A stretch of DNA of 58,544 nt, filler included, from Stramenopiles sp. TOSAG23-6 (GCA_900128565.1; 19 parts of 19 records of this genome joined end to end with filler, not necessarily neighbours in it), one strand, 5' to 3'. Positions 1 through 54,300 are shown, counted from the first letter of the whole stretch. The notes: generated from the sequence alone by a model not told the origin. Translations and numbers: made by a program.

Positions 1-491
1 TACAGATCAAAATGGTAAAATTATAGATAAAAGCGAATCTACTGATCGAATTCATCGTTTGAGGGTTGGGGAAAGTGGATTTGCTGAAATTGTTAAGGCT
101 CCATCTCTTTTGGATTTTGTTAAAAAGGTAAAAAGAAAAAAAAAAAAGGTAGACGGGGATATTTCGTGTAGTTAGTGGGTAACAATGCCATGGTTTATTA
201 TTTTAAATATCTACACAATTCTGTGTGTTTTTGAAATTAAATCAATTTTGATAATTTGCATATTTTGGTATTTTATTCAACTGTTCGTTATTAACCAAGA
301 TAGAATTTGTAGTACATGATGTCGTTTCTAGTCCCATAGTGGAAATCGACAATATATAATTAATACTATAACCAGAATCAAAAAAGTTTCAAATTATGAA
401 AAATAATGTAAAAAAAATAAACAAAGTACTTCAATATTCGCAAAATCTATATTAGATTTTACTTTTTGTTAAAAAAAAAAATAAAACATAC

Positions 492-1026
492 ATGTAAAAA
501 AGCCTTTGTACATTTAATATGATAATCGAGATATGACCGTAATCCAATGATTAATTCCATACATTTTGCACGATTTTTTGGTTCCTTGACATGTTTCGCT
601 TGAATAGAAAACGTGAGATAATACGTTGTAACACCGTCTGGTGGCATTTCCAAATTATTTTCTGATGCGATTTTTGCGACTTCAGCTGGTGGAGTCTTGT
701 GAAATTGACACACTGGTGCTGCAGAACGACTTCGTTTTTGAGCATCCGCAAATTCCTGGAGAAAGACATACACAAGTTCATTATCTGTCTCATCAGCGAA
801 ATGGATGGAATGTGATACGACAATACGATCGTCACCGGGAGCTATATAAAGTCGACCGTCAAGCCGATAATCGACGAAAGCACTGGGCGCTTTTTCTCCT
901 TTTATAAGCATATCCAAAGCATATTCAACAGGAGAACAGAATAGGCGATGCCTCAGTAGCGCCATTGTAAGGCATATTTCATCTGCTTCACCAGGAAGTG
1001 AGTTTCCATCGGCGGAGATTGTAACT
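492..1026 (-). CDS. ARPC2: Arp2/3 complex 34 kDa subunit, internal fragment
   Basis: DDRIVV..F.DE.D....VFLQEFADA, AP.C.F...PP.E, YLTF and YLDYHIKCTKAFLH match ARPC2/p34-Arc; the frame is interrupted at 491 by the GTATGTTTT repeat-intron donor. Confidence 0.9.
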
Positions 1027-1126
1027 NNNNNNNNNNNNNNNNNNNNNNNNNNNNNNNNNNNNNNNNNNNNTTAATTAATTAANNNNNNNNNNNNNNNNNN
1101 NNNNNNNNNNNNNNNNNNNNNNNNNN
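1027..1126. other. Artificial contig linker (N-run/TTAATTAATTAA/N-run), first of 18
   Basis: Identical 100-nt spacer with stops in all six frames; others start near 2152, 3277, 4401, 5525, 6649, 7773, 8895, 10017, 11138, 12259, 13380, 14500, 21851, 29198, 36542, 43885, 51219. Confidence 0.98.
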
Positions 1127-2317: not shown

Positions 2318-2880
2318 AGTACATACGTTGCATCAGCATATTGATTTGCCCAAGTCATTAAGTAATAACAAGTGATGGACATGATCATAATCCAATACAG
2401 TAAGGGTAATATGGCAGACTCAGGAACACCCCAAACTGAACACGAACAACGAAAATCTCCACAAACATGTATTGTGAAAAAAAAAAATTAAATTCGAAAT
2501 TAAAAAAAATTCGGACAAACAAAACGAATAGAGCTAGGATTCAAATTCATAACTACACCAACAAGACATACAAATACCGTAGCAAACATATACGACCAAC
2601 CAACAACAGTTGAAGAAGGATATCGTCGAAGTAATATCTTGGAAATAACTACAAAGACTGCTGTTCCAAGGCAATTTACAAAAAAACATAAATTACCAAG
2701 AATTTCGTCCAAAGGATTTTTTGCTATCAGACTTTGTCGAAATGTAACCATAAAAATACCACCCAATAGTGCTAGAGAAACTCCAAATGCCTTTAGTAGC
2801 GTCCCTTTCTCCCAGCCTAGTATAATTGTTATCACCATGACCAATATTGGCTGACTCGGTTGCCAGGCTGAACCGTATAC
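2318..2880 (-). CDS. EamA/DMT family drug-metabolite transporter, internal fragment (2 exons)
   Basis: Multiple TM helices; ILGWEK...K..GV.LA..G, GNL...N.L..A...V..K.LL.RYP and YYLMTWAN motifs; intron 2467-2520 restores IRF|VCGD... Confidence 0.75.
2467..2520 (-). mobile_element. Short GT-AT intron (degenerate repeat-intron copy)
   Basis: GTTTGT...TTTTCACAATACAT; contains an in-frame TAA; removal joins the transporter exons; lacks the branch motif. Confidence 0.55.
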
Positions 2881-6648: not shown

Positions 6649-6848
6649 NNNNNNNNNNNNNNNNNNNNNNNNNNNNNNNNNNNNNNNNNNNNTTAATTAA
6701 TTAANNNNNNNNNNNNNNNNNNNNNNNNNNNNNNNNNNNNNNNNNNNNTATTTTGGAAAAATATTTCAAAAAAAAAACTTAAATTTGTTAGGTACAAAAT
6801 TTTCAAAAAAAAATAAATTTGAAATTGAAAAAAAAAAAAAAAAAATAC

Positions 6849-7413
6849 ATGTCGCACTGCTGGACCAACAAGAAAAAGTCCTGGAGTTATACTACTTTCA
6901 TCAGAGTTTGTTAGGAATGGGGAGCGTTTTGCGCAATTATCGTTTTTGTTGTCTTCTTTTTCATCAACAAAATTGTCTTCTTTTTCATCCACAAAATTGT
7001 CTTCTTTTTCATCAACAAAATTGTCTTCTTTTTCATCAACAAAATCATCATCTAGAATTTCTATATCAATAATCTCTTTACTCACAATGTCATTGTCACT
7101 ATCTTCATCTTCTTTAGGTTGACCCCATTCAAACAAATCTTTGACAACACCTAAGCGAACACTTCCTTCGAAACCGGCACATAGAATGTATTTTGGAAAA
7201 ATATTTCAAAAAAAATCTAAAAAAAACTTGTTAGGTACAAAATTTCGTACGAAAAAAAAATTCGATTTTTTTTTTACCGGAAAAAATAATAAAACATACA
7301 TGGGTTGTTGTTGTGTATATAAAGTGATCTCTTCATCAACTTTTGATGTATTGTCACTCATAATTACATCTGGCACTTGTTCTCTGTATTTACCATTAGA
7401 AATCTTCTTCTTT

Positions 7414-11237: not shown

Positions 11238-12258
11238 CAAAAGCATTTATTAAATATGGACGGAAACGTAATTGCCAAGTACGCCTAGCTCTTTTACCTC
11301 GCCATTTTCCAACTGATTTTTTGTCTAACCAATACTCACAGTCAGCTATCAAATGATCTACACCGTACGTATCATCTTCTCCTGGAATTGCGGAATTTCC
11401 GTCGGAATTTCTGTCGGAATTACCATCAGAATTACCATCAGAATTTCCATCGGAATTTCCATCAGAATTTCCATCGGAAGTATTAAATTGACGTTCGAAA
11501 CGATCCGGAGTCAGTCCTGTGAATGGTAATTTATAATTTCCATTTCCTTTGGAGAGTAAAACAAAAGTATTTGTCAAATCTTCTATAAAATCACTTAGTG
11601 TCTTTCAATTCATTATAAGAAAAAAAAGGATCTACTTTTTCATGTGCAGCAGCTTTTAAAATACTTATTGTAGCATGTACAATGCTTACTGTTGATACAT
11701 CAGTTTCACCCATATCATCTTTTATATTGCTATTTGAACTATTCGAAGAAAGAGAATTTTGCGAACTATTTGATGAATTATGATCTTTGTGATCTTCATC
11801 TGATATAATTGCATTGTTACTATGTAAAGCTCGGTTAGGTTTATGATTAGGGTTTGGCTTCCTATTGTTTGAATCACTTTCTTCTGAATCTTCTCCACTA
11901 GATTTACTTTTCCCTCTTTTAATTTCTCCTATACTAGACAAAGTATCATCATCAAAGAATACATTAGTAATATTATTCTGATTATTTTGATTTGAAATTG
12001 GATATCTTCGTAAACACTTCCAGTATGGCAGTACAATAGACTCAACTAAGGCTATATCACGAAGAGCATCATCTCTAATTTGACCATGTTCTATATCCAA
12101 TGGAGGAATAGGCTCTCCTAACATTGTCCTCACACATGTATCGTAAAAAAATATTTTTTTTTATTGTTTTTTGTTAGGTACAAAATTTCGTACGAAAACG
12201 TTTTTTTGGAAATTAATGATAAAAACATACACGCCTCAGCCCCTCTAGCAATGGATCT
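11238..12258 (-). CDS. Class II histone deacetylase (HDA1/HDAC6-like), C-terminal part of the catalytic domain plus extension
   Basis: Spliced RSIARGAEAC|VRTMLGEPIPPL...ALRDI..V.....PYWKCL matches the region after LEGGY in class II HDACs; exon structure near 11580-11640 uncertain. Confidence 0.65.
12136..12230 (-). mobile_element. GT-AT repeat intron (95 nt)
   Basis: GTATGTTTTT...TTCGTACGAAATTTTGTACCTAAC...TACGATACAT; restores EACVRTMLG. Confidence 0.85.
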
Positions 12259-13479: not shown

Positions 13480-14499
13480 CAAAAAGTTGAGATATCTAGT
13501 GATGATATGATAATAGAATCGGATACCGCAAATGTATGTGACTCTCTGATGAATTTCATTTTTTTATACAAAGTTTTGTACCTAACGTTTTTTTTTTAAC
13601 TTTTCACAACGCATGATTCTGGAAATAATCCAACCTGTGCTGAGATACTCCAGTCAGCCGTCCCCGAAATTATTAAAGCTGCGACACAGCACATATGTTT
13701 TCATTATGAATTTGAAATTTATTTTTTATTTTTTTTACTTGAAAATATTGTATCTAACGATTTTTTTTTCTGGCATAGTTTTTCATAATATATCTTAAAG
13801 GTGACACTGGAAAATATTTTAAAACAAAAGCTGCGATATATACTCTTTTGAGACAATTACTGCGAGCATCATCTGGGAAATCGCAATTGGGTTCAAAAAA
13901 CATTAATTTCTCTAAATCTGGTCTGAAACGAAGACCATCTTTGGAGAGACTGACATCTTCATCATCCATGTCTGATCTTCTCAATGTAGAAAGTCTAAAT
14001 GACCGAGGAGGACTTCATATCATTCGCGACCATGCTTCCGCAATTATCCCTGTTTTATTGAAAAGTTTGGATGCAAAGGCTCAAGGTCCAACTTCCGGAC
14101 CAATGCGTTTAGTAGCATTAGAATTTATGCGTGAGTTGCTATCAACGAATGATTCTAAATTTATATTTCCTTTCATTTCAAAAATTGTAGAAGTTGTTGC
14201 TTTATGTATCAAAGATGAATGGTATAGAATAGTTGCCGAGTCTCTTCGCGTAATTTCACGAATTGTTCAACTTATTCGACCCATTGATGCAGACACTGGC
14301 AAATTTCTAGAAATATCTTCTACATTTTCTCCGGATAAGTTCGCGATGCCACTTTTTATGGCTGTTAGGCCATGTTTGCGAAAGAGAGATCTGGATCAAG
14401 AAGTTAAGGAATGTGCTATCACTGCTTCTGCGTTAATTTTATCACGATTTGGAAATAATTTGGATGACCTTTTTGAAAAAACAGGGATAATTGCGGAAG
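13480..14499 (+). CDS. CAND1: Cullin-associated NEDD8-dissociated protein 1 (HEAT repeats), internal fragment
   Basis: VP.IIKA...LK....KTK...LL.QL, L.AL.F, D.WYRIVAESL.V, D.DQEVKECAI; requires introns 13534-13614 and 13693-13793. Confidence 0.85.
13534..13614 (+). mobile_element. GT-AT repeat intron (81 nt)
   Basis: AT|GTATGT...TTTTGTACCTAAC...TTTTCACAACGCAT|. Confidence 0.75.
13693..13793 (+). mobile_element. AT-AT variant of the repeat intron (101 nt)
   Basis: CAC|ATATGTTTT...TTGTATCTAAC...TTTCATAATATAT|CTT; restores the CAND1 frame (ATQH|LKGD). Confidence 0.75.
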
Positions 14500-14654
14500 N
14501 NNNNNNNNNNNNNNNNNNNNNNNNNNNNNNNNNNNNNNNNNNNTTAATTAATTAANNNNNNNNNNNNNNNNNNNNNNNNNNNNNNNNNNNNNNNNNNNNC
14601 GTACGTAATTTTGTACCTAACGATTTTTTTTTGAAATATTTTTCCAAAATACAT

Positions 14655-15459: not shown

Positions 15460-15555
15460 GTATGTTTTATTTTTTTTTAACAAAAAAATCGATTTTTTTT
15501 CGTACGAAATTTTGTACCTAACGAATTTTTTTTGAAATATTTTTCCAAAAAACAT
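15460..15555 (+). mobile_element. GT-AT repeat intron joining two different genes (probable chimeric junction)
   Basis: Near-consensus copy; upstream exon is RMC1-like in phase 2, downstream exon is RRP5 in phase 0. Confidence 0.75.
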
Positions 15556-18500
15556 GCAATACGTATGAGCACACTTTTTTCTTCAGGAACAGAAGTTAAT
15601 AATGCTTTGGTGCTTCATAATATTAGTGCTAAAAAGAATCACGGTGCATCTGTATTAATTACTTTAAAACCTTTATTTTTACAAAGTAGTGTACTGCCTA
15701 GTTCAATAGAAGATCTTTCGGTTGGTTCTATTGTACCTGCTTTTGTTTCTGGTGTGAAAACGTTTGGCGTTTTTATTCGATGTTTTGGTAACTTGACGGC
15801 TCTTGCTCCTAGATCCGAAGTTTCTGATTCGTTTGTGTCGGATCCAAATGAATTCTTTTCTGTTGGACAATCTGTCCGTGCAATTGTTACGGATATAACT
15901 GATGGAAGAGTTGTCGTGTCTTTGAAACCTTCCTTATGTTCCAGTGCTGAAGGTGATCACGATGCATTATTTTTATCGAGTATGTTGAAAGAAGAATCTC
16001 TGATGGGTCCTACTGTAGATGTAGATGATGATTCTATGAATATTGACAAACCAAATGCACAGGGGAAAACTCTGGAAATCGGTTCATGTGTTGAAGGTAA
16101 GATTATATTTGTGAAAGAGTATGGACTCATCATGGAATTAGAAGGAGGTCACATGGGATTAGTAATGAATCATCACGCAGCAGGAAAAGGTGTAGATGAC
16201 ATGAATATGAAACATAAATGTCGTGTCTTGCATGTATGTTTTATTTTTTTTTTTTTACAAAAAAATCGAATTTTTTTTCGTACGAAAGTTTGTACCTAAC
16301 GATTTTTTTTTGAAATATTTTTCCAAAATACATGTAAACTCTGAAAACGGCGTTGTTGATATTTCATTGAAGCCGGATCTTGTAAAGGCAGGTAAGAAGT
16401 CCAAGCGCAAATTACAAGCAACATCTGTAAAAAATATGACTATTGGTAGTATAATATCTGTCAAAATTGAACTGGTCAAAGAGGGTCGATATTTTATTAC
16501 TTCTATCCCTTCATGCAAAGGTGTCGTTGCTCTTGCGTCTATTGCCGGGTACAATGGACCTTCAAGCAAAATTTCTGCTTTAGTGGCTGGTGATGAATGT
16601 CAAATGCGCGTGGTTAAGCTACCAGATGCTAATTCCTCTCAGTTACTTTTGGCATCGGTGTCAGGCCGATCTCGCAAGACGTCTTCAAAAGAGTCCAACG
16701 TATTAACCGAAAAAAAATCCAATTCAATACTTCTTGAAGATGTGACAATTGGAATGACATTAAAAGGTAAAATTGTTTCTATCTTAGACTCTCAGATGAA
16801 TGTATCATTATTTGGCATTCAAGGCTATGCATGTGGTCGCGTTCACATCACTGAGGTAAGCGACGTGTCTGATAAAAATCGTGTGGTAGAAGCAATATCA
16901 TTGAAAGAAGGTGAAATGGAAGAACAAGAAATCGATCACCCTTTTGAAACTCATTGCAATGGTGAGATTATCAATGTCAAAGTCATTGGTATTCGCCATT
17001 CCCAGGAGAAAGGTAAACGAACATTTGAATTGTCTTTACGACCCTCTGTGATGAAACTTGAAGAAGGTAAAATTGGGACTCCGCGTTTTTCATGGGGTGA
17101 AAAGTCATTGCCGAAAAATTTACCATCAAAGAGCCAAGAAGTACAAGCTATTGTTACGAGTGTTGGCAGTGAACATATTAGTGTTGCTCTTTCTACAAGT
17201 GTTCATGGTGAAATTTCTATGATTGATGTCTCTCAGAATCAAAAGGTTGTTGAAGAACTCCGTCAACGGTTTACTCCAGGACAAATGCTTTCTTGTTTTG
17301 TTTTATCTGTTGATTCTAAAAAGCATCGCGTGGCTTTATCACTGCAAAAACATGATATAACTGCTGGTATTTCTGTCATGGGTCGTATCACCACCATTAA
17401 CCGCGGTGAAGGTGCTGCTCGTGGACAGTTAACTTCACTTTGTGTTCAATTACCAGGTAGACGTTATGGTCGTGTGTGTATCACTGAACTTACAGATGAG
17501 GATAAATGGGTGTCGATGCCATTGAAACAAAAAAAGTTTTCTGCTGGAGAGTTAGTGCGTTGTCGTGTTCTGAGTATATCCAAAAAACATGGTGGTTATC
17601 ATATTGATTTATCTTTACGCCCATCTATTTTTTCACTCTCTGTCAGCGATGTGACAAATCTTACACCAAATACTGCTAATATTGTTGTTGGACAACTTGT
17701 AAAAGGATATGTTCTTAATACAACTGTTAAAGGATGTTTTGTCAAAATGGCAGGTGGTGCAATTGGCCGCGTATTTGTCAGGAATCTTTCGGATTCATTC
17801 ATCAAGAATGTTAGTTCAGCTTTTCCTCCAGGAATGCTTGTAACTTGTCGTGTGATTTCTGCATCTATGGTTGCCGGAAAACGTCGTATTGAACTTTCAT
17901 TAAAAGAGTCTGTTGTGAATGGAAGTGGGGAAGAAGGTAAAATGTCAAAAAGTTTTACGGATTTCGAAAAAGGTGCAATTGTCACCGGTCGCGTTCGTCG
18001 TGTCACCAAATTTGGTGTTTTTGTTCGTTTGACTAACAGTGAGGTGGATGGTCTTTGTCACATGACTCAAGTTTCAGATGATAAAGTAGAAAATCCTGAA
18101 GCATTAGCTTCAATGTTTGATCAAGGTGATTTGGTTAAAGCAAAAATTTTGCGCATGGATATGGAGAAGAAGAAGTTATCTCTAGGTCTGAAAGCATCTT
18201 ATTTTGATGACGAAGACACTGAACTTATGGATGAAAGTAGTGACGATGAAGAGACCAACGCCATTTCTGAAAATTCTTCCGAAAATGAAGAAGATATGGA
18301 TATTGTTGAAAACGATATCGATGTTGACGACACTATTAAAACTACAACAAATCATACTAACAGTAGTGATGAAGATTCAGAAGATTCAGAAGATTCAGAA
18401 GAAGATAGTACTGATGAAGACAGCGAGGAAGAAGAAGGCACCAAAGAAAAAAATGCCCCTGTTGTCTCATTCGACACAGGGCTTGATTGGGGTGGTGATT

Positions 18501-31900: not shown

Positions 31901-32858
31901 AGGAAGCACAAACTTTTTCAGAATCTTCTAAAGTTCTCATAACATCTATTAACTATGATATTGAAAATATTTCAAAATATCAATTTTGTTGTTAGGTATA
32001 TAAATTTCATAGTTAAAAAAAAAAAAAAAAAAAAAAATCTGTTTTCGTTTTCTATGAAAATTTCGTATGAAAAAAAAACAAATTCATGATGAAAACAAAC
32101 ACCTTCAACACTATTATTTTCCTTAAATGCAATTGTAGTTTCAATGCCATCAACCAAGAGATCTGTCACTTCAGTAGCCACTTCTTGCAAGACTTCATTC
32201 ACTGTGAAAAATATTTTTTTTTTTTAGTAAAAAAAAATCGTTAGGTACAAAATTTCGTACGAAAAAAAAATCGAATTTCAAAAAATTAAAACATACGTCT
32301 TCCTCCAGCTCTTCTTTTGTTTTATCTTTATTTTCTTTTAAATGTGTTTTTTGAACAATTGTAGTTGTACCAAATATAAAATCTTTTACGCCAATAGAGT
32401 ATACATGATATTTCAAAGAATTATTTTTTTTTTGTTAGAATTTTAAAATTTAATTTTTTTTTTTTTTTACTATGAAAATTTCGTACCAAACCAAAAAACC
32501 AAAAAACCAAAAAACCAAAAAAAAAAAAAATTGTAAAACAAACATACACATATCCAACATCAAATAAATCTTTCACTGCTCTAAATGCTTTAATTAGATC
32601 TAATATACCATGCTTATTATCTTTTTCTTTAAATGCTGTAAACGCAGCTAAACTGTCTCTTGCAGCATCAGCAGCATCAATACTCATATCTCTTAAAACA
32701 CTTTCCGAAAGCTCCGATGCTGTGTTGTATGAAAATATTTAAAAAAAAAAATTTGTTAGGTACAACATTTCATAGTAAAAAAAAATCATAGTAAAAAAAA
32801 AAAAAAAAAAAAAAAAAATTTTTTTTGTTTTTTTTTTGGGAAAAAATTTTTTTAATGT

Positions 32859-32890
<32 letters not shown>

Positions 32891-33364: not shown

Positions 33365-34871
33365 CTATTGTTTAGAAAAAAAATATCAAAAAGAACAAAT
33401 AACAGAATGCATAATAATATACATGCTTCCCAACGTAAATCGGTTACTAATAGTATACTAGCACCAAGTATATATATTGTGAAAAATATTTTTTTTTTTT
33501 TTTTTTTTTAATATTGTTTTGTTAGGTATGAAATTTCGTATGAAAACNAAAAAAAAAAAAAAAAAACATTGTATTTTAAATTCGAAATTCGAAATGACAT
33601 ACGTGCGGTGGCCATAAAAAACTGAAACGTGTTGTTTGTAATATATTTGGTGTTGATGACGTCATTTTTTTACTCATCAAAATGAAATATTTCGTGTATT
33701 TTTCTTGTTCATCATTTTTTTTTCGATTAGGGTTAGGGGTAACATAAAATTTCTTTGAGATATTTTGAATTTCGAATTTACTTTTCTGAAATATTTTCAC
33801 AACATTTTCAAATGGATGAGAGATAATATTAATGTACTGAATGTTATAGACAAGATTCAAATTATAAGCAAAAAAAGATATAATATTACCTCTATATGCA
33901 TTATAAAACTGTGTCGAATGTTCAGGAAAAAAAAATGAATTGTTCTTGATTTCGTGATTAGTGTTCTCTTCATCAAAAAAAACAGTTTTTTCTAATTTTT
34001 CATCATTATTATCATTATTATCATTATTGTACAGTAATAGATGACTAATAACCATTATGACAAGAGTAAGTTGTGTACAGAAAAATAATCGACGATAACT
34101 TTTGCTTTTTTTTATGCCCTTAACCCTAGCATGACTTGTACCAATATTTTTTTTAACGTTAGTGCGGATTTGTGAATCATCTTTTACCGTTGCTGTTGTA
34201 GAGGTAGGATTACTCATTCCATTATTTTTCCCTTTTTGAATAGTATTTATTGTAGACGTGAAATATCGACCATTGTTTATACTTGGCCGTTGTTTTGATT
34301 TTGTATTGTATTTTTGAGTGTTACGTTGACGGAGGGTACTCACTTGATTTTTTGAAGAATTTGAAATATTTGATTGACCCGACGAAATAAAAGAGTTATA
34401 ACTAGCGTGAATATTAGATGCACTTGATGAAGTCTCTGAGAATTTACTCTTCTTGAACCTGTCGGATGGATCACGTAAAGTAGATGCAGATGTTGCACGT
34501 TTTGTTTCAGATTTTTGTAGGTGTAGTTTTGGCTGTTTTTGAATGGGACGGAAAGACTTATTCTCCTGTTGCTGTTGAGTATTTCTCCAATTTAAAAGAT
34601 TTTCATCGCTATCGAAGAATGCTTCATCATTACTACTTACAGAGTCTTCTTCACCTTTGTGTTGTTTTTTTATTTGAAAGCCGAAGTTTTCTTTCGTTTG
34701 TTTTTTTTCGTCAGAGTCTGAACGCGGTGAATTCTCATTGAAAAAATTTGGTTTCAGCTGTTTTGAAGAACTTAGCAGATCCTTTGCTACTCCAATAATA
34801 AAAAAGAATAACGGAATACACATCAAGTATAGTACGGTTTTCCATAGTATTTGCAATACATAGGATAACAT
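33365..34871 (-). CDS. Hypothetical membrane protein; GT-AT intron 33472-33602
   Basis: 431-aa ORF with TM segments; splicing adds a hydrophobic tail ILGASILL...FFSKQ*. Confidence 0.55.
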
Positions 34872-41962: not shown

Positions 41963-42648
41963 ATGCATCGTCCTGTGCTGTATACAACGATTCTAATTGT
42001 ACATCACTTAATAGGCTTAATAGTAGACTCTACAGCATTGTCNGTTNTGTCGTCGCCCAAGCGGTTTCACATAAATGAAATATTTGGTGTACATATTGAC
42101 GAAAGTTGCATGGTNGAGCAGCTATCAGCAGCAAAAGCTTGCGCTCCCGGGAAAGATGGTTCTGATTGCAACAAATGTGTACAATTTCTTGGTTTTTGTA
42201 AAAGTGGCTCTCCAAAATTTCATGTTAAACCAGATTGTATGTACGTTTCCATGATACATTTCAAATAGTTTTTTATCGTACGAAATTCCGTANCTAACAT
42301 TTTTTTCTAAAATACTTTTTCAAAATACATGAGGGACTGTTTAGTATCCCACACTAGTTGCAGTGCATGTGTGAAAGTCTACTCCAAGTGTAGTTTCGGT
42401 ATGGGCTTACATGGAGATAAAGTCAAAGAGATAAATAATGAAACCAAAATGGATCAATATATGTCTGTTTTATTTTTTTTTTTAACAAAAAAATCGATTT
42501 TTTTTCATACGAAATTTTGTACCTAACAAATTTAATTTTTTTTTTTAAATATTTTTCCAAATATATGATGTCTAAAGTCGTTAATCAAATGAATTCAAGT
42601 ATTCCTTCAACTTGGCCATTAAGTATGGATGATTTTGACCAACTTTAG
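41963..42648 (+). CDS. Small secreted cysteine-rich protein (3 exons; GT-AT introns 42241-42330 and 42463-42566)
   Basis: Hydrophobic N-terminus, many Cys; removing both introns gives one frame (DCM|RDC, QYM|MSK) to TAG at 42648. Confidence 0.6.
42241..42330 (+). mobile_element. GT-AT repeat intron (90 nt)
   Basis: AT|GTACGTTT...TCGTACGAAATTCCGTANCTAAC...CAAAATACAT|G. Confidence 0.75.
42463..42566 (+). mobile_element. GT-AT repeat intron (104 nt)
   Basis: AT|GTCTGTTTT...TACGAAATTTTGTACCTAAC...TTCCAAATATAT|G. Confidence 0.75.
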
Positions 42649-42916: not shown

Positions 42917-43831
42917 ATGTTTGTTAGAGCAACCAATGTGGGGAGAAGAAATCGATTCTTTGATCGTATAAAAACATGTCGTGCATCTTCTAACACCACA
43001 AATAGTAAAAAAGGTGTAGATCTCTCCTTTGCCAAGACTGCTCCAACTAATGTTCGAAAAGTAGCATGTCTTGGTACAGGTGTAATTGGGGGTGGTTGGG
43101 TTTGTGACTTTCTTCGAAATGGCCTCGAAGTAACGGCGTATGATCCATCACCAGGCGCAGAGGAAAATATGTTGCGTATGGTAGATAAAACATGGCCTAT
43201 TTTAGAAAAACTTGGGTTGAAAGATGGGGCATCACCAAATAACCTCAAAATCTTTACAGATCCACCTGGATGGACCGGAAAAAGTAATGCACTCGCGGAA
43301 GCGCTTGATGGTGTTGACTGTGTACAAGAGAGTGTACCGGAAAATTTGGAGGTGAAACGAAAGTGTTTTAAAATCGTTGATGAATTGTTGCCATCGAACG
43401 TTCCTGTTTTATCAAGTATTTCAGGGTCTTACTTTTTAGCCGATCTCCAGTCCGCATGTGAGAGTAACCCCGAGCGCTTCACTGTAGCTCATCCGTTTAA
43501 TCCTCCATATTTGATTCCACTTGTTGAGATTGTTGGATCTGAAATTACGAATCCATCAGTCATTGAGTGGGCATTTCAGTTTTATAGTTCGATTGGCAAA
43601 TTTCCGTTAGCTTGCTCTCAAGAAAATCCCGGATATGTCGGTAATCGACTGCAAGATGTACTTACAGGTAACTCTTTCATGAATTTGAATTTTTTTTTCA
43701 CTATGAAATTTTGTACCTAACATTTTTTTTTCTTTTGAAATTTTACAATACATGCGCTGTGGCGTGAAGCCTTGCACATGCTTGTCTCTGGTGAAGCTAC
43801 ATTTGAAGAAATTGATGCAGCCATTGTATAT
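42917..43831 (+). CDS. L-carnitine 3-dehydrogenase-like (CdhA/LcdH; 3-hydroxyacyl-CoA dehydrogenase family) with presequence, 3' partial
   Basis: LGTGVIGGGW, YDPSPGAE, WP.LEK.GL..GAS, QESVPE...K, HPFNP.YL.PLVE.VG, PGYVGNRLQD|ALWREALHM. Confidence 0.85.
43658..43753 (+). mobile_element. GT-AT repeat intron (96 nt, in-frame stop inside)
   Basis: GAT|GTACTT...AAATTTTGTACCTAAC...TACAATACAT|GCG; restores NRLQDALWREALH exactly. Confidence 0.9.
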
Positions 43832-43984
43832 GTATGTTTTATTTTTTTTTTAAACAAAAAAATCGAATTTATTTTTCGTACGAANNNNNNNNNNNNNNNN
43901 NNNNNNNNNNNNNNNNNNNNNNNNNNNNTTAATTAATTAANNNNNNNNNNNNNNNNNNNNNNNNNNNNNNNNNNNNNNNNNNNN

Positions 43985-47660: not shown

Positions 47661-50600
47661 ATGTTCTCAAAGAGTACTGCAAACGACGTCACGAAAACTT
47701 CTAGATTAATAACAATAGAAGAAGATTTTAGAAGTCACGAGGAAGACGTCAGCAGTGTACTGGCAAGTATCACTGATCCAAATATACTTCGCAGTGTGTG
47801 TGTATCTTTATNTACCCAATATCAAGTCCCTATTTGTGTCCTTCGAAGTTTGATTAAACGGGGTATATCTTCCACAAGTTCTACTTTTCCTAGTTTTGTT
47901 GAGAAAGTTCTTCCAACAGAAGATAATGATAATAATAATGATAATAATAATGATAATAATAGGAGTGACCAATCAAAGAGCCTTTTACAAAACATTTCAT
48001 GTAAANCTCNTGAAGGTTCTCCTTTTTGCAACGACAGAAATGAAAATTCTGTTTTGTCTGTTTCCTTAGTAGAAAAAAAAATAGAAAAAAAAAACGAAAG
48101 AAATGTCGTTTACTCCGACTTCACTAAAAAAAAAACAATCAATTGACTTTCTCGACTGTCTGAAAGAAACTCCTGAAATCATTCGTTTATTTCATGTATG
48201 GAGTATGGGTGAACCTAGAATGACGATGAATCGACTNAGAGAATTTTATCATACCATACAAATGGAAACAATTGACATTTCAACGCTTTCACTCTCAACA
48301 AAAGAACGGAAACAAGGTATAAAAATTATGCGTTTCATCTTGCTACTTATCAATAGTACTATCAATTGTGCATTTGAGCCGTCTCATAGACACGTGTATC
48401 AGGATATGAATCAACCTTTAGCTCATTATTTTATATCTACAACTCATAACACATATTTAGAAGGAAATCAGTTGATTTCAAGATCATCTACTGATGCAAT
48501 ACGTAATGCTTTACTTGCAGGATATCGTGTCATTGAATTAGATTGTTGGGATGGAAATGCTAAACATTTTAAAAACAGCTCAAAATATTCAGGCTATTCA
48601 GGACCCGTCGTCCGTCATGGTATTTCATTAAATAATTCAATTCCGTTTGAAATAGCTGTTGATGCAGTGTATGCTAATGCTTTTCTGACGTCGAAATATC
48701 CTCTTATTCTTACTTTAGAAAATCATTGTACAATAGAAAATAGAATTATAATGGCAAAAATATTACGGTCTGTATTGGGATCTTTATTATTTATTCCAAC
48801 AAAAAACTGGATAAATAATCGAAAATTTTCCTCACCATTTTCCTTGAAACATAAAATAATACTACGAATGAAAGTTAATCGGACAATGCATTTTGAAAAA
48901 TATGAAAAAAAAAATGTTGGAGGGTTAGGGTTAGGAGGTGTTATAACAGAGTATGGAAATGACACAATGGATAAAAATATTGAAACAATTGAACATCTTA
49001 CATCAGACAAAACATCTAAAAAAGTCGGACAACAAACAACAGAAATTNCTACAGATTCATTTTCAAATATACCAAGTAGCTCTATTCAGACAAATCATGG
49101 GGATAGTTGTACAACGACAACACTACCACCATCAAAATCATTACCAATAACAACAAATAATTCAAATCATGATACAATAGATAGTAGACAAATGAATAAG
49201 CGATATAAAAATATTGAAGGTTGGTTATATAAAGGTACAGGTGTCAAAAAGAAATTTCGATATTTTGTATTGGATGGTACGACTTTGTTGTATTATAAAA
49301 CAGAAATGTGTAAAATTATGAGTGGATATATTTGTCTAGGAAACGCTTCAATAGGAATTATTGATCATAATAATGTACTTAATAGGACAAAGATAAATTC
49401 TGATATTGCTGTCAAATATTCTTCAAGTACACGAAATAATATAATTTCATCTAGGGTTAGGGGAATGACGACTAAACATTTGACCACTGAAAAATCTCTT
49501 ACTTTCACGATAGATTCAATTCGACCTAAACGAAAGACTTATGTACGTTTTCAACATTGATTTTTTTTGATAGATTTTTTTTTTACTAAGAAACTAAAAA
49601 ACTAAAAAAACTAAAAAACTAAAAAAAATATATATATATATTTTCACTATACATACTTTAAGTGCACAAAATGAGAAAATATTTTGGGAATGGATTGATC
49701 ATATTGCATATACAATAGAGAATTCAATGAATTCCAATAACAAGTTCCTCAAAAATCAAAATTATAAGAAGCAACAAAAACAGGAAATATATAAACAAAA
49801 ACAACAAAATCATCAACATTTTGATACATTGGAAGAAATACCAATTGTTCCTGAATTAGATGAACTTGCTGCTATTTGGAATGAACCTTTAAAAAAAGGT
49901 CAATTGAATGCAGCAGCAGGTTTGTCACATGCATCATCGTGTTCGTGGGATGAACTAAAATTAGGTAAAATGCGAAGAGCCAATAAAAAAGGTGTTTTAC
50001 AATATGCAGAGCGACATTTATTGCGAGTATATCCTGCATTTTTTCGTGTCAATTCGTCTAATTTTAATCCCCAACGTACATTTTTATTATTCATTTTAAT
50101 TTTGCATTTTTTTTTTCATAGAAAATTCTTTATCTAACATTTGTTTTAACTATATAAACATATAATTTCAAAATACATGAATGTGGACTTCTGGTGCTCA
50201 ACTAGTTGCATTAAATCATCAAACAGCAGGGCCAATGACGTCATTAAATCGTGCGAAATTTGCTGATAATGGTGGTTGTGGATTTGTTTTAAAACCAGAA
50301 TGGATGAGGAAATCTCCGATTGAATTACCTAAAAAAGGAAAACGAGGTCGTGAAGCATTGCCATGTTCTATTTATCAACGTACTTTACGTCTACAGGTTT
50401 TAGGTGTTCAGTTGTTTCTTCCTGGATTTTTCAATGGTACAATTAAAACACAAAAAACACAAAATATGTCAAGTGTAGAGGACAATAAAAACAGAAACAT
50501 ATTGGCAACAACTTCAAAAGTATTTACTATTCAGGTTGAAGTTGTCAGTAAAAAACATGGAAGTTTTAAACAAAGTATTCGATGGGACCGTAGAAAAAAT

Positions 50601-51002
50601 CTAAAATTACCAATTTTAGAATTTCCATTAGCACAACAAGGGGATGGTATAGAAATTATACATATACGAATTTATGATGCGATGATAAGAGTGTTGACAT
50701 CACCAAAGGTCATAGCTGATACGGCCATTACAATCGCTAATTTAAGACAAGGAATTCGTGTTCATAAGTTGTATGACATTCCCAATACAAATAATAATTA
50801 TAATAGTGAGTCATCAGAACAACAAACAGAAAAAATATGTGGTTCTATTTTATGTGCTTGTAATATTATTGATGAACAATGGAATGAAAAAGGAACAAAA
50901 AAAGATCCGAAAATTGAATTTCGTGTGTTATCAAATTGGGTTGCAGGAATGAGCACAGATACTGATGCTGATCGAGGATTTACTGAAACTGATGATAAAT
51001 AA
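47661..51002 (+). CDS. Phosphoinositide-specific phospholipase C (X domain, PH in the X-Y linker, Y domain, C2-like)
   Basis: QDMNQPLAHYFIST.HNTYL.GNQL, GYR.IELDCWDG, YPLILTLENHC, RVYP...R.NSSNFNPQ|RMW..G.QLVALN.QT, F.DNGGCG.VLKP; introns 49543-49654 and 50076-50178; homopolymer frameshift near 48130. Confidence 0.92.
49543..49654 (+). mobile_element. GT-AT intron (112 nt, degenerate)
   Basis: TAT|GTACGTTTT...TTTTCACTATACAT|ACT; restores the PH end RKTY|TLSAQNE....WIDHI. Confidence 0.8.
50076..50178 (+). mobile_element. GT-AT intron (103 nt) whose boundary cannot shift left
   Basis: CAAC|GTACAT...TATCTAAC...CAAAATACAT|GAATGTGG gives PQRMW; shifting 1 or 2 nt left creates TGA. Confidence 0.88.
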
Positions 51003-51318
51003 ATATTTTGTTTTCCTTTATGCAGTTTTTATTTTTTAACTTACTCCTTTTGAATCTACAAAAATGAAGTTGCGTTTTTTTTTTNCTTNATTNATTTTNT
51101 CCNGGAGTAATGTTTCTTTCATTTTCATTGACTATTGTAACAGTTATCATTATAGGCTTATACGCACTGTGGGCTATAAAAACCTTAACTCTAATCTATG
51201 CTACTAGAACTTTCATCANNNNNNNNNNNNNNNNNNNNNNNNNNNNNNNNNNNNNNNNNNNNTTAATTAATTAANNNNNNNNNNNNNNNNNNNNNNNNNN
51301 NNNNNNNNNNNNNNNNNN

Positions 51319-54300
51319 TGACTACTATGACTACTATGACTACTACTTCTTCTAGTAGTGTTGCTGCTGCTTCTAGTAGTAGAAGTTCTTCAACTGCCTC
51401 TCATGATATTGCTGCTTCTAGTAGTAGTAGTTCTTCAACTGCCTCTCATGATATTGCTGCTTCTAGTAGTAGTAGTTCTTCAGCTTCTAGTAGTAGTAGT
51501 TCTAGTATTGCTAATGCTAGTGTTGCTAATGCTAGTGGTGGTGGTGGTGGTGCAAGTGTGTCTACTACGACTAAAAAAAAGACTGAATCAAGTGAAGAGG
51601 AAGAAGAAGATCTTTGGCAAGGAATATATATCTGTAATGGAAGAAAAAAGCTTTATCAAATCGCGAGAGAAGTAGGAGTCTCATATAAAGATTTAATTAA
51701 ACACAATCAAGGTTTGAATTTACAAAGAAGTTCAGGAATGAAGCTGAGAACTCGTCTTTGGATTCCTAAAGACAAAGAAAAGAGTAAGAAAAAGTCAATC
51801 GGAATGAGTCAAGCGCAAGAAGACGAAATCAAAANACAAATTTCGGAAATTGAAGNGAATAAAAAATTACAAATTCAACGTGAAGAGGAACAGACAAATN
51901 CAATGAAGGCAGATTTTTCTCGACAACGTTCANTGATNTACCAAAAGCATNCAGAAAAAATTAAAAAACATGAAACGGGTGCAACAAATTATTTTTCAAG
52001 TCAATTCACAAATGAAAAACAAAAACTTTCATNGGNTCACAGACGCGAGGTTGAACAATTTGAAAAAACAAAGAAAGAATTACTACAAAACATACGATCT
52101 TCTTTGGATGCGGCATATAAAAAATGTTTGAGTGAAAAAANAACATTACAATCACAATTTGAGAAANAAAAGAAGACATTGGNAGAGAGTCATCAAAAAG
52201 ACGTACTGAAAAAGAAGGAACATCATTCTGCTATTGTTATGGAACTAGTACAAAAAANGCATGATCTTGAAACACAAATTATTAACGCCAAGTCCAAAGT
52301 GGTAGAAGATACAGAAAAGATTCAAAAACTTATGGCAGCAAAGAAAGNTCTCGATGAGAAATATGAAGTTGATAAGAATGCAATNGTACAATCAATCAAA
52401 GACAGTGAAGGTAAATATATCGCTGATGTAAAAGCATTGGAAGGANAACTTTCTAAAGTCAAGGNAGAGATTCAAGAATGTTTGAACAAAAAACAAATCA
52501 GTGAAGAACAATTAAAAAGTGAANAGCAAAGTATCGATCAACAACGTTCTGAATTAACTTCTAAACATNAAAANGAAATGGNTCAACAGTCTGAGGAACA
52601 TCAGAGNATAATATCAAAAGGAGTTNAAAAATCTAAAGATGNGTTGCTTAANGATCATAAGCTTGAACTGAAAAAATTTNATGAAAACGTANAAAGAGAA
52701 ATTTCTAAATTACAAAACTCATTTCAACAATTTGATGAATCAAAATTAAACAGACTGAAACAACAATTACAACAACAATTAAAAAAAAAACTAGAAAAAG
52801 AAAAACGTAAAAGTCGTAAAAGAAGAAAAGATACTAGTAAACCAACTAGTACTGATTTGCGTCGGAATGTCCGTAGAGCAGTTCGTGGTTCTAATAAACA
52901 ACAAAACCCCCCTTCCAAAGAAACCCGAATTGGTACAGAATACCAAGCCCGAATTGGTACAGAATACCAAGCGCAAGTTCCTCCTCTAGGTCATCCAACC
53001 CCAATGGAAGAGTCTGAAACTTCCGTTGAATTCAGGCAAAACATTTCAAAAAGGATTCAAGATATTGAAATCCGTGCAAAACAAATGAAAGATCAATGGT
53101 TACCTTTGAGTGCAACTGAAAAAAAAGCAAAACAAAGGCGAGACCGAAGGCGACATGCNGCACATTTAAAAAAAGAATACGGAAGAAAGCAAATAAGCCA
53201 AATTGAAATGATTAAAAATCAACATAAAAGAAAACGAGAACTAAGTACATCAAAAAAGAGAGCAAACGGTAAAAGATCAAAAAAACAAAAAAAGAAAAAA
53301 GGACAAAACAATACGCCGTCTTCTGTACCATCTGTGACACCTCGTAGAACTGCTCAATCTGTACCACCTGTGGCACCTCGTAGAACTGCTCAATCTAGTA
53401 CACAGTATGTACACAATACTTCTGGATCATTTCATTTAAATGCAAAAGTATTTGCAAATTTTAAAGGTCAAGGAATATTTTTTCCTGGAAAAATTGTTAA
53501 AATTCATTCTGATGGAACATTTGATATTCTATATGATGATGATGATTTTGAATCTGATGTAGATGAAAGAAACATACAGTACCAGCTTCAAGAAGGTTCA
53601 AAAGTATTTGCATATTATAATGACGTAAAAGAAGTTGCACAAGGATTTTATCCTGCGCAAATTAAGAAAGTACTTCCTAATAATTCATATACTATTATTT
53701 ATGACGATGATGGAATAGAAGAATCTTTACCTGCACACTTGATGTATGTTTTATTTTTTTTCAATTTTTTGTCTATATTGTTTTTTCATACGAAATTTTG
53801 TTTCTAACGATTGTTTTTTGAAATATTTTTCATAATACATACGCATTGGTAAATGCATTAAAGATATTGACGAAGAATCATTTGATTTTGTATTTGCTGA
53901 AACGCAAGGTAAATTTTCTATTGGTTCAATATCAAAGGCTCAGAAGACTGGCAGAGATTTTTTATATGATATTAAATATGATAAAGATGAAATTGAAGAC
54001 GAACAAAACGTTCTGTCAAATAAGATACGTATTCCTGTACCTATATCATCACTTCGATATCAAGATATTCATCTATATCCTGATATAAAAGTAATGACAG
54101 CAACATCTACTACATTGAGTGAAGAGGGAAGATCTGCAAGCCATCATTCTCCAAATGGAGGTGGAAAAGGTGGAGGTAGAGGTGGAAAAGGTGGAGGTAG
54201 AGGTGGAAAAGGTAAAGGAAGAAGTAGAGGTAGAGGTAGAGGCATCCAAGGTAGTGTATACCATGGGTATCCTCAACAATCAGCATCATCAACAACACAA

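What the first reader, a model, noticed from the sequence alone, without database searches (positions are those of the whole stretch)
491..53840. Genome-wide family of introns ending in AT instead of AG (GT-AT introns)
Seen: a ~95-110 nt repeat (GTAYGTTTT - T-rich - TTTCGTACGAAATTTTGTACCTAAC - T-rich - TTTTCC/CACAATACAT) sits inside coding regions, in sense orientation wherever the host gene is identifiable, on both strands and in many unrelated contigs. About 22 complete copies restore the frame when cut GT...AT. Examples: RRP5 S1 domain (16234-16333), carnitine dehydrogenase NRLQD|ALWREALH (43658-43753), PLC SSNFNPQ|RMW (50076-50178), aminotransferase (21620-21716), HDAC (12136-12230). In RRP5, CdhA and PLC the first downstream AG would delete conserved residues or shift the frame. 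AT-ending introns outnumber the ~7 AG-ending ones in this window. Established: the major spliceosome almost always needs a 3' AG, and GTATGT plus CTAAC are U2-type donor and branch motifs. Inference: this organism routinely splices at a YAU/AAU acceptor, implying altered 3' splice-site recognition.
Basis: partly seen in the sequence, partly recalled or inferred. Interest (0 to 1): 0.95.

Follow-up and report, generated by a model that had tools for sequence, protein, structure and literature searches.

The report
Repeated introns that end in AT
A roughly 100-base mobile repeat sits inside many genes of a marine protist, and the genes only make sense if it is cut out as an intron that starts with GT and ends with AT instead of the near-universal AG.

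Summary
The window is 19 short contigs of an AT-rich eukaryote draft, joined by spacers. nhmmer finds 41 copies of one ~100-nt element (39 distinct), and 34 of 41 lie in sense to the flanking ORF. Of 26 readable 3' ends, 24 are AT and 2 are AG.

Exact GT..AT removal is backed by homology in four genes:
- Carnitine dehydrogenase: 5 of 5 homologues align with one 32-codon gap over the element.
- PLC: the Pfam Y-domain profile runs 72 | 73 | 74 across the junction.
- RRP5 and an aminotransferase: AT is the best of 44 in-frame acceptors in each, though only narrowly over an AG in the aminotransferase.

In the ORF frame test, 10 of 15 copies pass clearly, 4 are compatible and 1 fails. Three public gene models force GT-AG here, and two of them give aberrant proteins.

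My best reading is an introner: a transposon-like intron family carrying GTATGT and CCTAAC signals and spliced at a 3' AU.

No spliced RNA junction was seen. No RNA contig bridged an element, and one ran unspliced into it. The HDAC example was not supported. Searches found no description of a GT-AT introner family. This is a new variant of a known kind, and RNA proof is still needed.

The parts
43658..43753 (+). Family copy (96 nt, GTACTT..ATACAT) in a carnitine 3-dehydrogenase-like gene. It is in frame and carries two stop codons.
   Evidence: tblastn of 5 of 5 homologues gives one 32-codon gap exactly over it, leaving NRLQD|ALWREALHM. AT is rank 1 of 29 in-frame acceptors. The public model P0001 forces GT-AG and loses ALWRE.
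50076..50178 (+). Diverged family copy (103 nt, GTACAT..ATACAT) in the PLC Y domain, phase 1.
   Evidence: Pfam PI-PLC-Y: the upstream exon ends at profile position 72 and the downstream exon starts at 74. The split codon (R) fills position 73. Only the GT..AT or TA..TG registers are possible.
16234..16333 (+). Best-scoring family copy (100 nt) in an S1 domain of RRP5.
   Evidence: nhmmer 93 bits. AT is rank 1 of 44 in-frame acceptors against 5 RRP5 homologues. The product VLH|VNSENGVVDISLK aligns without gaps to ILDVNPEKKIYDLTLK. The public model P0272 translates part of the element instead.
21620..21716 (+). Family copy (97 nt, GTATGT..ATATAT) in a class I/II aminotransferase gene.
   Evidence: AT is rank 1 of 44 acceptors, but only 1030 against 1021 for the in-frame AG at 21725, which the public model P0121 uses. 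Homologue loop lengths fit both.
21137..21232 (+). Non-family canonical intron (GTACGT..CTACCTAAT..ACAG) in the same aminotransferase gene.
   Evidence: The Pfam profile runs 161/162 across it. Sequence; P0121 reads NPTG|AVFSQ. This shows that GT-AG introns coexist with the family.
7186..7299 (-). Family copy (114 nt), followed by T rather than G. It has an internal TTTTAG 14 nt after the branch A.
   Evidence: Frame test: 80/81 open codons with GT..AT, against at most 19 on one side for the other two frame classes. Use of the internal AG at 7217 stops after 29 codons.
15460..15555 (+). Family copy (96 nt) upstream of the RRP5 S1 exon.
   Evidence: nhmmer 85 bits. The frame test passes, but the coding status of the upstream exon is uncertain.
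22315..22409 (+). Diverged copy (95 nt, GTTCGT..ATACAT, followed by T) in a coiled-coil gene.
   Evidence: Frame test 81/81 against 23/8 and 23/81.
32197..32296 (-). Family copy (100 nt) ending CACAGTGAAT, with an AG 5 nt before the AT end.
   Evidence: Frame test 46/74 with the AT end. The AG at 32202 gives 8/76. This rests on ORFs only; no homologue was available.
33472..33602 (-). Family copy (131 nt, GTATGT..ATATAT, followed by A).
   Evidence: Frame test 81/81 against 22/81 and 19/81.
42241..42330 (+). Family copy (90 nt, GTACGT..ATACAT). The donor is 4 nt downstream of a second GTATGT.
   Evidence: Frame test 80/65 with this donor, though another frame class also stays open at 55/64. It fails with the donor at 42237.
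42463..42566 (+). Family copy (104 nt, GTCTGT..ATATAT).
   Evidence: Frame test 50/27 against 50/8 and 9/26.
53744..53840 (+). Family copy (97 nt, followed by A) between a Tudor-domain ORF and a SET-domain ORF.
   Evidence: GT..AT joins the 846-aa and 432-aa ORFs in frame. A second frame is also open for 81 codons.
2467..2520 (-). Short variant (54 nt, GTTTGT..CACAATACAT) in an EamA-type transporter gene.
   Evidence: Found by pattern. Frame test 81/71 against 81/26 and 81/14.
23381..23482 (-). Family copy (102 nt, GTACGT..ATTCAT) that fails the frame test.
   Evidence: GT..AT leaves only 10 open codons downstream, while a +1 shift leaves 46. It may be a last exon or an assembly error; unresolved.
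23615..23713 (-). Family copy with GC..AG ends (GCACGT..CTGTAG), preceded by exonic AG.
   Evidence: It is the only AG-ending copy with both ends visible, and its upstream flank is also AG.
12136..12230 (-).
   Evidence: nhmmer 68 bits. The upstream exon has only 9 codons before the contig end, and the downstream ORF has no Pfam family. The junction is not testable.
13534..13614 (+). Diverged copy (81 nt, GTATGT..ACGCAT) in a CAND1-like gene.
   Evidence: The frame test is not decisive, at 18/57 against 18/60.
14600..14654 (+). 3' half of a copy at a contig start. It is one of about 12 copies cut by contig ends (for example 2252-2317, 6749-6848, 7706-7772, 8808-8881, 11053-11137, 21798-21850, 29144-29197, 36642-36707, 43832-43884).
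   Evidence: DNA contigs of an independent metagenome also break at the element (table 8).

Best explanation
This is an introner: a short (~95-115 nt), non-coding, transposon-like element that has spread into many genes of a marine AT-rich eukaryote. A tool label on the identical annotated protein, GSMAST32, suggests a MAST-3-type stramenopile; that reading of the label is my own.

Each copy carries its own strong U2-type signals: a 5' GUAUGU (or GUACGU), a yeast-like branch site UACCUAAC, and U-rich tracts.

I infer that the major spliceosome removes it from the pre-mRNA exactly from the G of GU to the U of a terminal (C/U)AU, 29-50 nt after the branch A. If so, the 3' splice site dinucleotide is AU, not AG. 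The same genes also contain ordinary GT-AG introns, so the machinery would accept both.

What is shown:
- the family, its sense orientation, and its conserved signals;
- that exact GT..AT excision, and no AG-ending alternative, restores conserved protein sequence.

What is inferred:
- that the removal is spliceosomal and happens at the RNA level;
- that the first step is AG-independent because of the strong 5' site and branch site;
- that the second step tolerates U at the last position;
- that the terminal AT may be the second copy of a 2-bp AT target-site duplication, so that removing the element plus one duplicate restores the gene.
For: 1. Family. 41 nhmmer hits in 56.8 kb, the best at E 3e-28.
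2. Orientation. 34 of 41 are in sense to the flanking ORF, 5 are ambiguous and 2 are 'antisense'. This is expected if only one strand is spliced.
3. Conserved signals. GT, CTAAC and (C/T)AT survive in diverged copies such as those in PLC, 3HCDH and at 22315. The donor hexamer is GTATGT in 12 and GTACGT in 5 of 25 donors.
4. 3' ends. 24 AT and 2 AG among 26.
5. Carnitine dehydrogenase. 5 of 5 homologues give a single 32-codon gap over the element, leaving NRLQD|ALWREALHM.
6. PLC. Pfam profile positions 72 | 73 | 74 run across the junction.
7. Acceptor scan with the donor fixed at GT. AT is rank 1 of 29 (3HCDH), 1 of 44 (RRP5) and 1 of 44 (aminotransferase).
8. Frame test. 10 of 15 pass clearly and 4 are compatible.
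9. Public GT-AG gene models. P0001 loses the conserved ALWRE, and P0272 translates element sequence.
10. High copy number in an independent DNA metagenome. Summed depth is about 35,000 over the element against about 8 over flanking exons. The tool warns that this is no copy number.
11. Flanking dinucleotide. AT precedes the donor in 13 of 25 copies against a background of 0.105, p = 3e-7. The one AG-ending copy with both ends visible is preceded by AG.
Against: - No spliced RNA junction was seen. In the one read-laying run, no RNA contig bridged 16234-16333 or 21620-21716.
- One 277-nt contig of an RNA library (X8 record 24, depth 5) runs from the exon 54 nt into the 21620 intron without splicing. 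Element sequence is abundant in all three RNA libraries. DNA carry-over or pre-mRNA could explain both, but neither was shown.
- One copy (23482-23381) fails the frame test.
- In the aminotransferase, an in-frame AG 9 nt downstream scores almost as well (1021 against 1030).
- AT before the donor is absent in about 10 of 25 copies, so the target-duplication idea is not proven.
- Spliceosome components could not be examined, because no genome is held.
Confidence: 0.75

Rival explanations
1. The elements are ordinary GT-AG introns. Splicing would use a nearby AG, either inside the element or in what I call exon, as the public gene models assume. The proteins would tolerate the resulting small insertions and deletions.
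For: - Public models P0001, P0121 and P0272 are built this way.
- In the aminotransferase, the AG at 21725 is in frame and scores 1021 against 1030. Homologue loop lengths of 34-38 fit both models.
- 12 of 15 copies have no AG between the branch site and the AT end. Such an AG-free zone is typical where AG is still read.
Against: - 3HCDH: the GT-AG model deletes ALWRE, which 5 of 5 homologues keep, and inserts VLT.
- RRP5: the first in-frame AG after the element (16372) scores 322 against 444. The public model replaces the S1 strand KCRVLH with element-encoded FVPNDFFLKYFSKIH.
- PLC: the profile is continuous only with the 103-nt excision.
- Copies 7299 and 32296: internal AGs lead to early stops.
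Confidence: 0.07
2. The true register is shifted, giving AT..AC or TA..TG introns. Some or all would be handled by a minor (U12-type) spliceosome or as U2-type AT-AC introns.
For: - In copies preceded by AT (13-15 of 25), the AT..AC register gives the same mRNA.
- U12-type introns are known to tolerate varied 3' ends, including rare GT-AT. I saw only search listings for this.
Against: - AT..AC is impossible where the exon does not end in AT: PLC (AAC), 21620 (CT), 32296 (AC), 12230 and 23482 (GT).
- TA..TG is impossible in the 8 of 24 AT-ending copies followed by A or T.
- The donor is GTATGT, not the U12 motif RTATCCTT. The branch A lies 29-50 nt from the end rather than about 10-20 nt. The U12 motif and distance are recalled, not taken from a call.
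Confidence: 0.05
3. The element is removed by something other than the spliceosome. Candidates are structure-guided excision, as in euglenid nonconventional introns or Amoebophrya introners, or DNA elimination, as with ciliate internal eliminated sequences.
For: - The ends form a short inverted repeat (ATGTAT / ATACAT, counting two exon bases).
- Transposon-derived non-canonical introns with paired ends are described in euglenids, hemistasiid diplonemids and Amoebophrya (PMC12621601 sections 3 and 5; PMC7789003 and PMC11282704 passages).
Against: - No copy folds better than shuffled sequence: z from -1.38 to +1.88 in 13 copies.
- A conserved U1/U6-type donor and a U2-type branch motif are retained in diverged copies.
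- The strong sense-strand bias argues against DNA-level excision, which should not depend on orientation.
- The element is present at high depth in DNA of an independent metagenome.
Confidence: 0.05
4. The elements are not removed at all. They would be recent selfish insertions, or assembly or amplification artefacts, that have broken these gene copies.
For: - The assembly is very fragmented, with many single Ns and one contig present twice.
- Unspliced element-containing contigs occur in RNA libraries.
Against: - Sense orientation in 34 of 41 copies.
- Frame preservation.
- Intact conserved exons on both sides in unrelated genes.
- The same gene-element junction regions are covered in an independent metagenome (table 8).
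- Diverged old copies still keep GT, CTAAC and AT.
Confidence: 0.04

Closest known systems
Introner elements (Micromonas, Aureococcus and many other, mostly aquatic, eukaryotes). Sources: Gozashti et al. 2022, search listing and abstract only; PMC12130899, passages; review PMC11282704, passages.
   Same: Many near-identical short introns lie in unrelated genes, in sense orientation, carrying their own splice signals. They show transposon-like features: short terminal inverted repeats and a possible target-site duplication that supplies a splice site.
   Different: Described introners are GT-AG, or other already accepted pairs. PMC12130899 states that families with unfamiliar splice sites were re-inspected and dropped unless transcripts supported them. 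This family ends in AT and would be missed by annotation-based surveys, because the public gene models force AG.
Non-canonical introns of the tunicate Fritillaria borealis. Sources: Henriet et al. 2019, as cited in PMC11282704 passages; PMC13326754, abstract and introduction.
   Same: They are transposon (MITE)-derived introns present in large numbers, removed by a U2-type spliceosome, with 3' ends that include AT.
   Different: [quoted passage not shown] Here the 5' GT, GTATGT and the branch site are strongly canonical, and only the last base deviates. Fritillaria has duplicated U2AF subunits; that could not be tested here.
Introner elements and non-canonical introns of Amoebophrya (PMC7789003, passages).
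   Same: It is a marine protist with repeated introns that spread like transposons, carry direct and inverted repeats at their borders, and are non-canonical.
   Different: Amoebophrya introns have 8-20 nt inverted repeats that form hairpins and no dominant terminal dinucleotides. U1 snRNA was not found in either strain, and U5 was missing in one (A25). Here there is no significant fold, and a single dominant GT..AT pair with a U1-type donor.
U12-type (minor) introns with rare GT-AT ends.
   Same: GT-AT termini occur there as a rare class (search listings).
   Different: The donor and branch motifs, and the branch-to-3' distance, do not fit U12-type introns. The U12 criteria are recalled; the measurements are.
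Nonconventional introns of euglenids and hemistasiid diplonemids (PMC6221363 passages; PMC12621601 abstract and sections 3 and 5).
   Same: They have non-GT-AG borders, a possible transposon origin, and short repeats at the borders.
   Different: Those introns lack conserved borders and U1 complementarity and depend on pairing of the intron ends. Here the borders are uniform and no stable pairing is predicted.

Membership tests
Introner elements | Many copies of one intron-sized sequence in unrelated genes | tested here: met
   41 nhmmer hits (39 distinct) in 19 contigs, in genes for RRP5, PLC, carnitine dehydrogenase, an aminotransferase, CAND1 and others.
Introner elements | Copies lie in sense orientation and coincide with intron boundaries | tested here: met
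   34 of 41 are in sense. Homology among copies ends at the GT and at the AT (loose ends at 16333/16334). Excision of exactly the element restores protein alignment.
Introner elements | Copies are spliced out of the mRNA | tested here: inconclusive
   No RNA contig bridged a junction, and one unspliced contig was seen. Only one read-laying run was allowed.
Introner elements | Transposon hallmarks: terminal inverted repeats and a target-site duplication | tested here: inconclusive
   There is a 6-bp ATGTAT/ATACAT repeat, or an imperfect GTAT(G)TTTT/AAAATAC one. AT precedes the donor in 13 of 25 copies, p = 3e-7, but not in all. No empty site was available for comparison.
Canonical U2-type GT-AG introns | 3' terminal AG | tested here: not met
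   24 of 26 ends are AT. No register shift gives AG in the 3HCDH, PLC or RRP5 copies.
Canonical U2-type GT-AG introns | U1/U6-type donor and U2-type branch motif | tested here: met
   GTATGT or GTACGT in 17 of 25 donors. CTAAC or CTAAT is present in nearly all copies.
U12-type introns | Donor RTATCCTT and branch TCCTTAAC within about 10-20 nt of the 3' end (criteria recalled) | tested here: not met
   The donor is GTATGT and the branch A lies 29-50 nt from the end.
Euglenid-type nonconventional introns | Stable pairing that brings the intron ends together, with no conserved borders | tested here: not met
   Fold z-scores range from -1.38 to +1.88 in 13 copies, and the borders are uniform.
Ciliate-type internal eliminated sequences | Removal from somatic DNA, independent of orientation | tested here: not met
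   There is a strong sense bias. The standard genetic code is used, for example in a 1104-aa ORF. The element is abundant in metagenome DNA. An excised DNA form was not specifically excluded, because 285 joints were not shown.
Fritillaria-type non-canonical introns | Divergent U2AF paralogues that recognise non-AG 3' ends | not testable with these tools

The most novel reading that the evidence does not exclude
In this stramenopile lineage the major spliceosome routinely uses AU as the 3' splice-site dinucleotide for thousands of introns. All would derive from one transposon family whose 2-bp AT target-site duplication supplies the acceptor. It does so even when an AG lies nearby, for example 5 nt upstream in the copy at 32197-32296 and 14 nt after the branch in 7186-7299. 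The 3' site would therefore be chosen by something other than AG: distance from a strong branch site, the CAAUACAU context, or a G(+1)-U(-1) contact in the second step. GT-AT introns may be the majority class in the genome.
Probability: 0.45. Interest if true: 0.9.

Novelty: new variant of a known kind. Interest (0 to 1): 0.8.

Why it matters
The 3' AG is among the most conserved signals in eukaryotic gene expression. Known large-scale exceptions, such as Fritillaria, Amoebophrya, euglenids and hemistasiids, change both intron ends or lose the conserved signals altogether.

Here only the last base differs, within an otherwise textbook yeast-like intron. That makes it a clean natural experiment on how the second catalytic step selects the 3' site.

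It would also show how a transposon can create introns whose acceptor is dictated by its target duplication, forcing or exploiting a relaxed spliceosome.

There is a practical consequence. Gene models for this organism that assume GT-AG are wrong at these sites: two of the three I checked give aberrant proteins. Annotation-based introner surveys would also miss the family.

Tried and rejected
- **RNA evidence.** It showed no bridging RNA contig, and 285 joints were not shown. Parts without RNA cover are no finding.
- **Transcript-derived proteins.** Searches with single exons found only the public gene models at high identity (89-100%), and no independent fragments: 3HCDH, aminotransferase, 1 hit at 52%, RRP5.
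- **More copies elsewhere.**
  - The 25-mer core found nothing in JGI metagenome contigs, GTDB genome contigs or IMG/VR.
  - A 19-mer found 3 loci that are chance matches: GC 38-44% and only the core aligns.
- **RNA structure bringing the ends together.** Not supported.
- **Rfam scan of the window for snRNAs.** Only a cut tRNA was found.
- **PDB search with the PLC upstream exon.** No hit. Pfam was used instead.
- **HDAC example.** No Pfam family.
- **ARPC2 intron at 491 (minus strand).** It has a family-like 5' end, but I could not find the downstream exon in the contig, so it was not used.
- **MSP-domain gene intron at 30344.** It is long, made of tandem degenerate copies, and probably ends in AG. 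Its end could not be fixed.
- **First ORF scan.** Too permissive in T-rich sequence to be useful.
- **Donor at 42237.** Rejected in favour of 42241.
- **A TA target duplication with CATG flanks.** Rejected, because it would imply a 6-nt loss from the exons that the gapless 3HCDH alignment does not show.

Full report
**What the window is**

The window is not one locus. It is 19 contigs (13 of about 1 kb and 6 of about 7.2 kb) joined by N44-TTAATTAATTAA-N44 spacers. GC content is 21-39%, and the later contigs carry many single Ns. One contig is present twice: 7873-8894 and 8995-10016 are identical.

Long ORFs read well in the standard code, for example a 1104-aa RRP5 ORF. Pfam names:
- ARPC2, LRR proteins, CAND1, a class I/II aminotransferase and ankyrin repeats;
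- BKACE next to a 3-hydroxyacyl-CoA/carnitine dehydrogenase;
- PLC X and Y domains, and a Tudor + SET protein.

No whole genome is held for the window. A protein 100% identical to one exon carries the EukProt label 'GSMAST32.ASY1.ANO1.758.1 assembled CDS'. I read that label as pointing to a MAST-3-type marine stramenopile assembly; that reading is my own.

The run search found the stretch in small DNA runs of one coded organism, in seawater metagenomes, and in small shares of three seawater metatranscriptomes.

**The observation**

The repeat is real. An HMM built from 8 copies finds 41 hits at E <= 0.01 (39 distinct), with the best at 3e-28.

The consensus, in order, is:
- GTATGTTTT, then a T-rich stretch with a variable A-run;
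- TTTCGTACGAAATTTTGTACCTAAC, then a T-rich stretch;
- GAAATATTTTTCCAAAATACAT.

Many contigs begin or end inside a copy. Contigs of an independent DNA metagenome break at the same places (table 8), as expected for a high-copy repeat. Summed depth over the element in that metagenome is about 35,000, against about 8 on the flanking exons (table 2). The tool warns that this is no copy number, but it does indicate very many copies.

Measured features:
- By a crude flanking-ORF measure, 34 of 41 copies are in sense, 5 are ambiguous and 2 are 'antisense'. One of the two lies in the 3HCDH gene and is in fact sense.
- Of 26 curated 3' ends, 24 are AT and 2 are AG.
- Donor hexamers are GTATGT in 12 and GTACGT in 5 of 25 donors.
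- The branch-like motif (CTAAC, or CTAAT in a few copies) is kept even in copies that have otherwise diverged, such as those in PLC, 3HCDH and at 22315.
- The branch A lies 29-50 nt from the end.

**Where the ends of the removed segment lie**

*Carnitine dehydrogenase (43658-43753).* tblastn of 5 of 5 homologues gives one continuous alignment with a single 32-codon gap that covers exactly the element. The element is in frame and holds two stops. The window then reads NRLQD|ALWREALHM, against NRLQE-ALWREALHM in the homologues. With the donor fixed, the AT end is the best of 29 in-frame, stop-free acceptors (1656 against 1601).

*PLC (50076-50178).* The upstream exon ends at position 72 of the Pfam PI-PLC-Y profile. 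The downstream exon begins at position 74. The split codon supplies position 73.

*RRP5 (16234-16333).* AT is the best of 44 acceptors (444 against 422). The first in-frame AG after the element scores 322. The product CRVLH|VNSENGVVDISLKPD aligns without gaps to GKILDVNPEKKIYDLTLKSE of a homologue.

*Aminotransferase (21620-21716).* AT is again rank 1 of 44, but only 1030 against 1021 for an in-frame AG 9 nt downstream. Loop lengths in homologues fit both models. This case is not decisive.

*ORF frame test on 15 copies*:
- 10 pass clearly.
- 4 are compatible but not decisive: 13534, 42241, 43658 and 53744. Homology settles 43658. For 53744 the frame is that of the 432-aa SET-domain ORF.
- 1 fails (23482-23381).
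- Ten of eleven decisive cases passing against a chance of one third gives p = 1.3e-4.

*The HDAC example* could not be tested. Only 9 codons of upstream exon lie in the contig, and the downstream ORF has no Pfam family.

**Register**

Because the flanks partly repeat, several cut registers give the same mRNA in some copies:
- 3HCDH allows AT..AC, TG..CA, GT..AT and TA..TG.
- AT..AC needs AT before the donor. PLC, 21620, 32296, 12230 and 23482 lack it.
- TA..TG needs G after the intron. 8 of 24 AT-ending copies lack it.

GT..AT is the only register common to all copies, and none of the registers ends in AG.

**Public gene models**

Three annotated proteins from the same labelled assembly were recovered, and all force GT-AG at family introns.
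- P0001 reads GNRLQDVLT|ALHM and loses ALWRE.
- P0272 reads AAGKG|FVPNDFFLKYFSKIHVNSENG. It therefore translates part of the element and drops the S1 strand.
- P0121 uses the AG at 21725.

Two of the three are clearly aberrant. Ordinary GT-AG introns do exist in the same genes. One example is 21137-21232 (GTACGT..CTACCTAAT..ACAG), across which the Pfam profile is continuous at 161/162.

**What it is and how it probably works**

The family fits an introner: a transposon-like element that creates an intron where it lands and carries its own 5' site, branch site and U-tracts.

Strand-specific removal is supported by the sense bias, which a DNA-level excision would not produce. No stable RNA fold is predicted (z from -1.38 to +1.88 in 13 copies). 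A euglenid-like structure-guided mechanism is therefore unlikely.

The donor and branch motifs are U2-type, and the branch-to-end distance is too long for U12-type introns (the U12 criteria are recalled).

I therefore infer splicing by the major spliceosome with AU at the 3' end. The strong GUAUGU and UACCUAAC would allow AG-independent assembly, and the second step would accept U at the last position. From general knowledge of spliceosome structure, which I recall rather than take from a call, the last intron base contacts G+1 of the 5' site.

Two copies carry an AG that the frame says is not used:
- 14 nt after the branch in 7186-7299;
- 5 nt before the end in 32197-32296.
Both rest on ORF evidence only.

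**Origin**

AT precedes the donor in 13 of 25 non-redundant copies by script, against a background of 0.105 (p = 3e-7). My regular expression mis-picked two donors (53744 and about 3495). Both are preceded by AT in the sequences printed, which would make 15 of 25.

The one AG-ending copy with both ends visible (23713-23615) is preceded by AG.

This suggests a 2-bp target duplication whose second copy serves as the acceptor. It is not proven, because about 10 copies lack the upstream AT and no empty site was available.

The carnitine dehydrogenase gene has only bacterial-type close homologues (at most 51% identity) and sits next to a BKACE gene. Its introns were therefore probably gained after a gene transfer. 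This is inference.

**What speaks against it**

No spliced RNA junction was seen.
- One RNA-library contig ran unspliced from the exon into the 21620 intron (X8 record 24, 21397-21673, depth 5).
- Element sequence is abundant in all three RNA libraries.

The tool notes that DNA can be present in such libraries.

Exon-only protein searches found no transcript-derived fragments. The element was not found in JGI metagenome contigs, GTDB genome contigs or IMG/VR. All counts therefore come from this window.

**Literature**

Searches covered:
- introner + non-canonical + splice site + marine;
- MAST-3 + introns;
- MAST-3F / MAST-4A;
- GT-AT + introns + non-canonical;
- introners + stramenopile + heterotrophic;
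- GU-AU + intron.

None returned a description of a GT-AT intron family.

Two papers on MAST single-cell genomes were checked by term search:
- PMC5778133 contains 'intron' twice, both in methods, and neither 'splice' nor 'non-canonical' at all.
- PMC8163842 contains 'intron' 0 times.

Supplements were not seen and could bear on this.

Comparators I read:
- PMC12621601, abstract and sections 3 and 5;
- PMC13326754, abstract and introduction;
- PMC7789003, PMC11282704, PMC12130899 and PMC6221363, passages.

**Verdict**

The GT..AT reading is well supported in silico, and RNA proof is missing. This is a new variant of a known kind: an introner with a non-AG acceptor.

Noticed in passing
window 7873-8894 and 8995-10016: Two contigs of the window are identical over all 1022 bases, so the assembly holds a duplicate record.
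   Followed up: yes
window 40617-41654 (-) and 42881-43884 (+): A BKACE gene lies next to a carnitine 3-dehydrogenase-like gene. The latter's closest homologues are bacterial or bacterial-type (at most 51% identity). This looks like a transferred carnitine-catabolism pair in a eukaryote, and the dehydrogenase now carries two family introns.
   Followed up: partly
table 5: joints 14654->15458 and 16333->21797: Contigs exist in which the 3' end of one element copy (..ACAT) is followed within 0-2 bases by the 5' start of another. They occur in the DNA metagenome (up to 9 contigs) and, as single contigs, in two of the RNA libraries. These are tandem copies or very short exons. Tandem degenerate copies also occur in the window at 30100-30344, 31724-31903 and 32711-32982.
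   Followed up: no
window 13689-13798 (+): A diverged copy in the CAND1-like gene has ATATGT where the family has GTATGT (..cagcacATATGTTTTC..). Its 3' region reads ..ATAATATATCTTAAAG. Its true borders are unclear.
   Followed up: no
window 29428-33738 (seven sites) and others: Short telomere-like (TTAGGG)2 / (CCCTAA)2 blocks are scattered in contig 29298-36541. Some lie inside introns, for example within the family copy at 29787-29890.
   Followed up: no
window 38484-39008 (-): An ORF with RNase H / RVT_3 (reverse-transcriptase-like) domains, possibly part of a retroelement.
   Followed up: no
window 58491-58544 (-): A tRNA gene is cut by the window end (Rfam RF00005, 40 bits).
   Followed up: no
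window 1-491 (-): The ARPC2 exon ends KAFLH|GTATGTTTTATTTTT.., a family-like 5' end. Neither the element core nor the next ARPC2 exon follows in the contig. This could be a long intron or a chimeric contig.
   Followed up: partly
window 5774-5900 and 6554-6648 (+): LRR genes carry a second, unrelated repeated intron type (GTAAGTAA..CTAAC..TCAATTATCATACAATACAG) with canonical AG ends.
   Followed up: no
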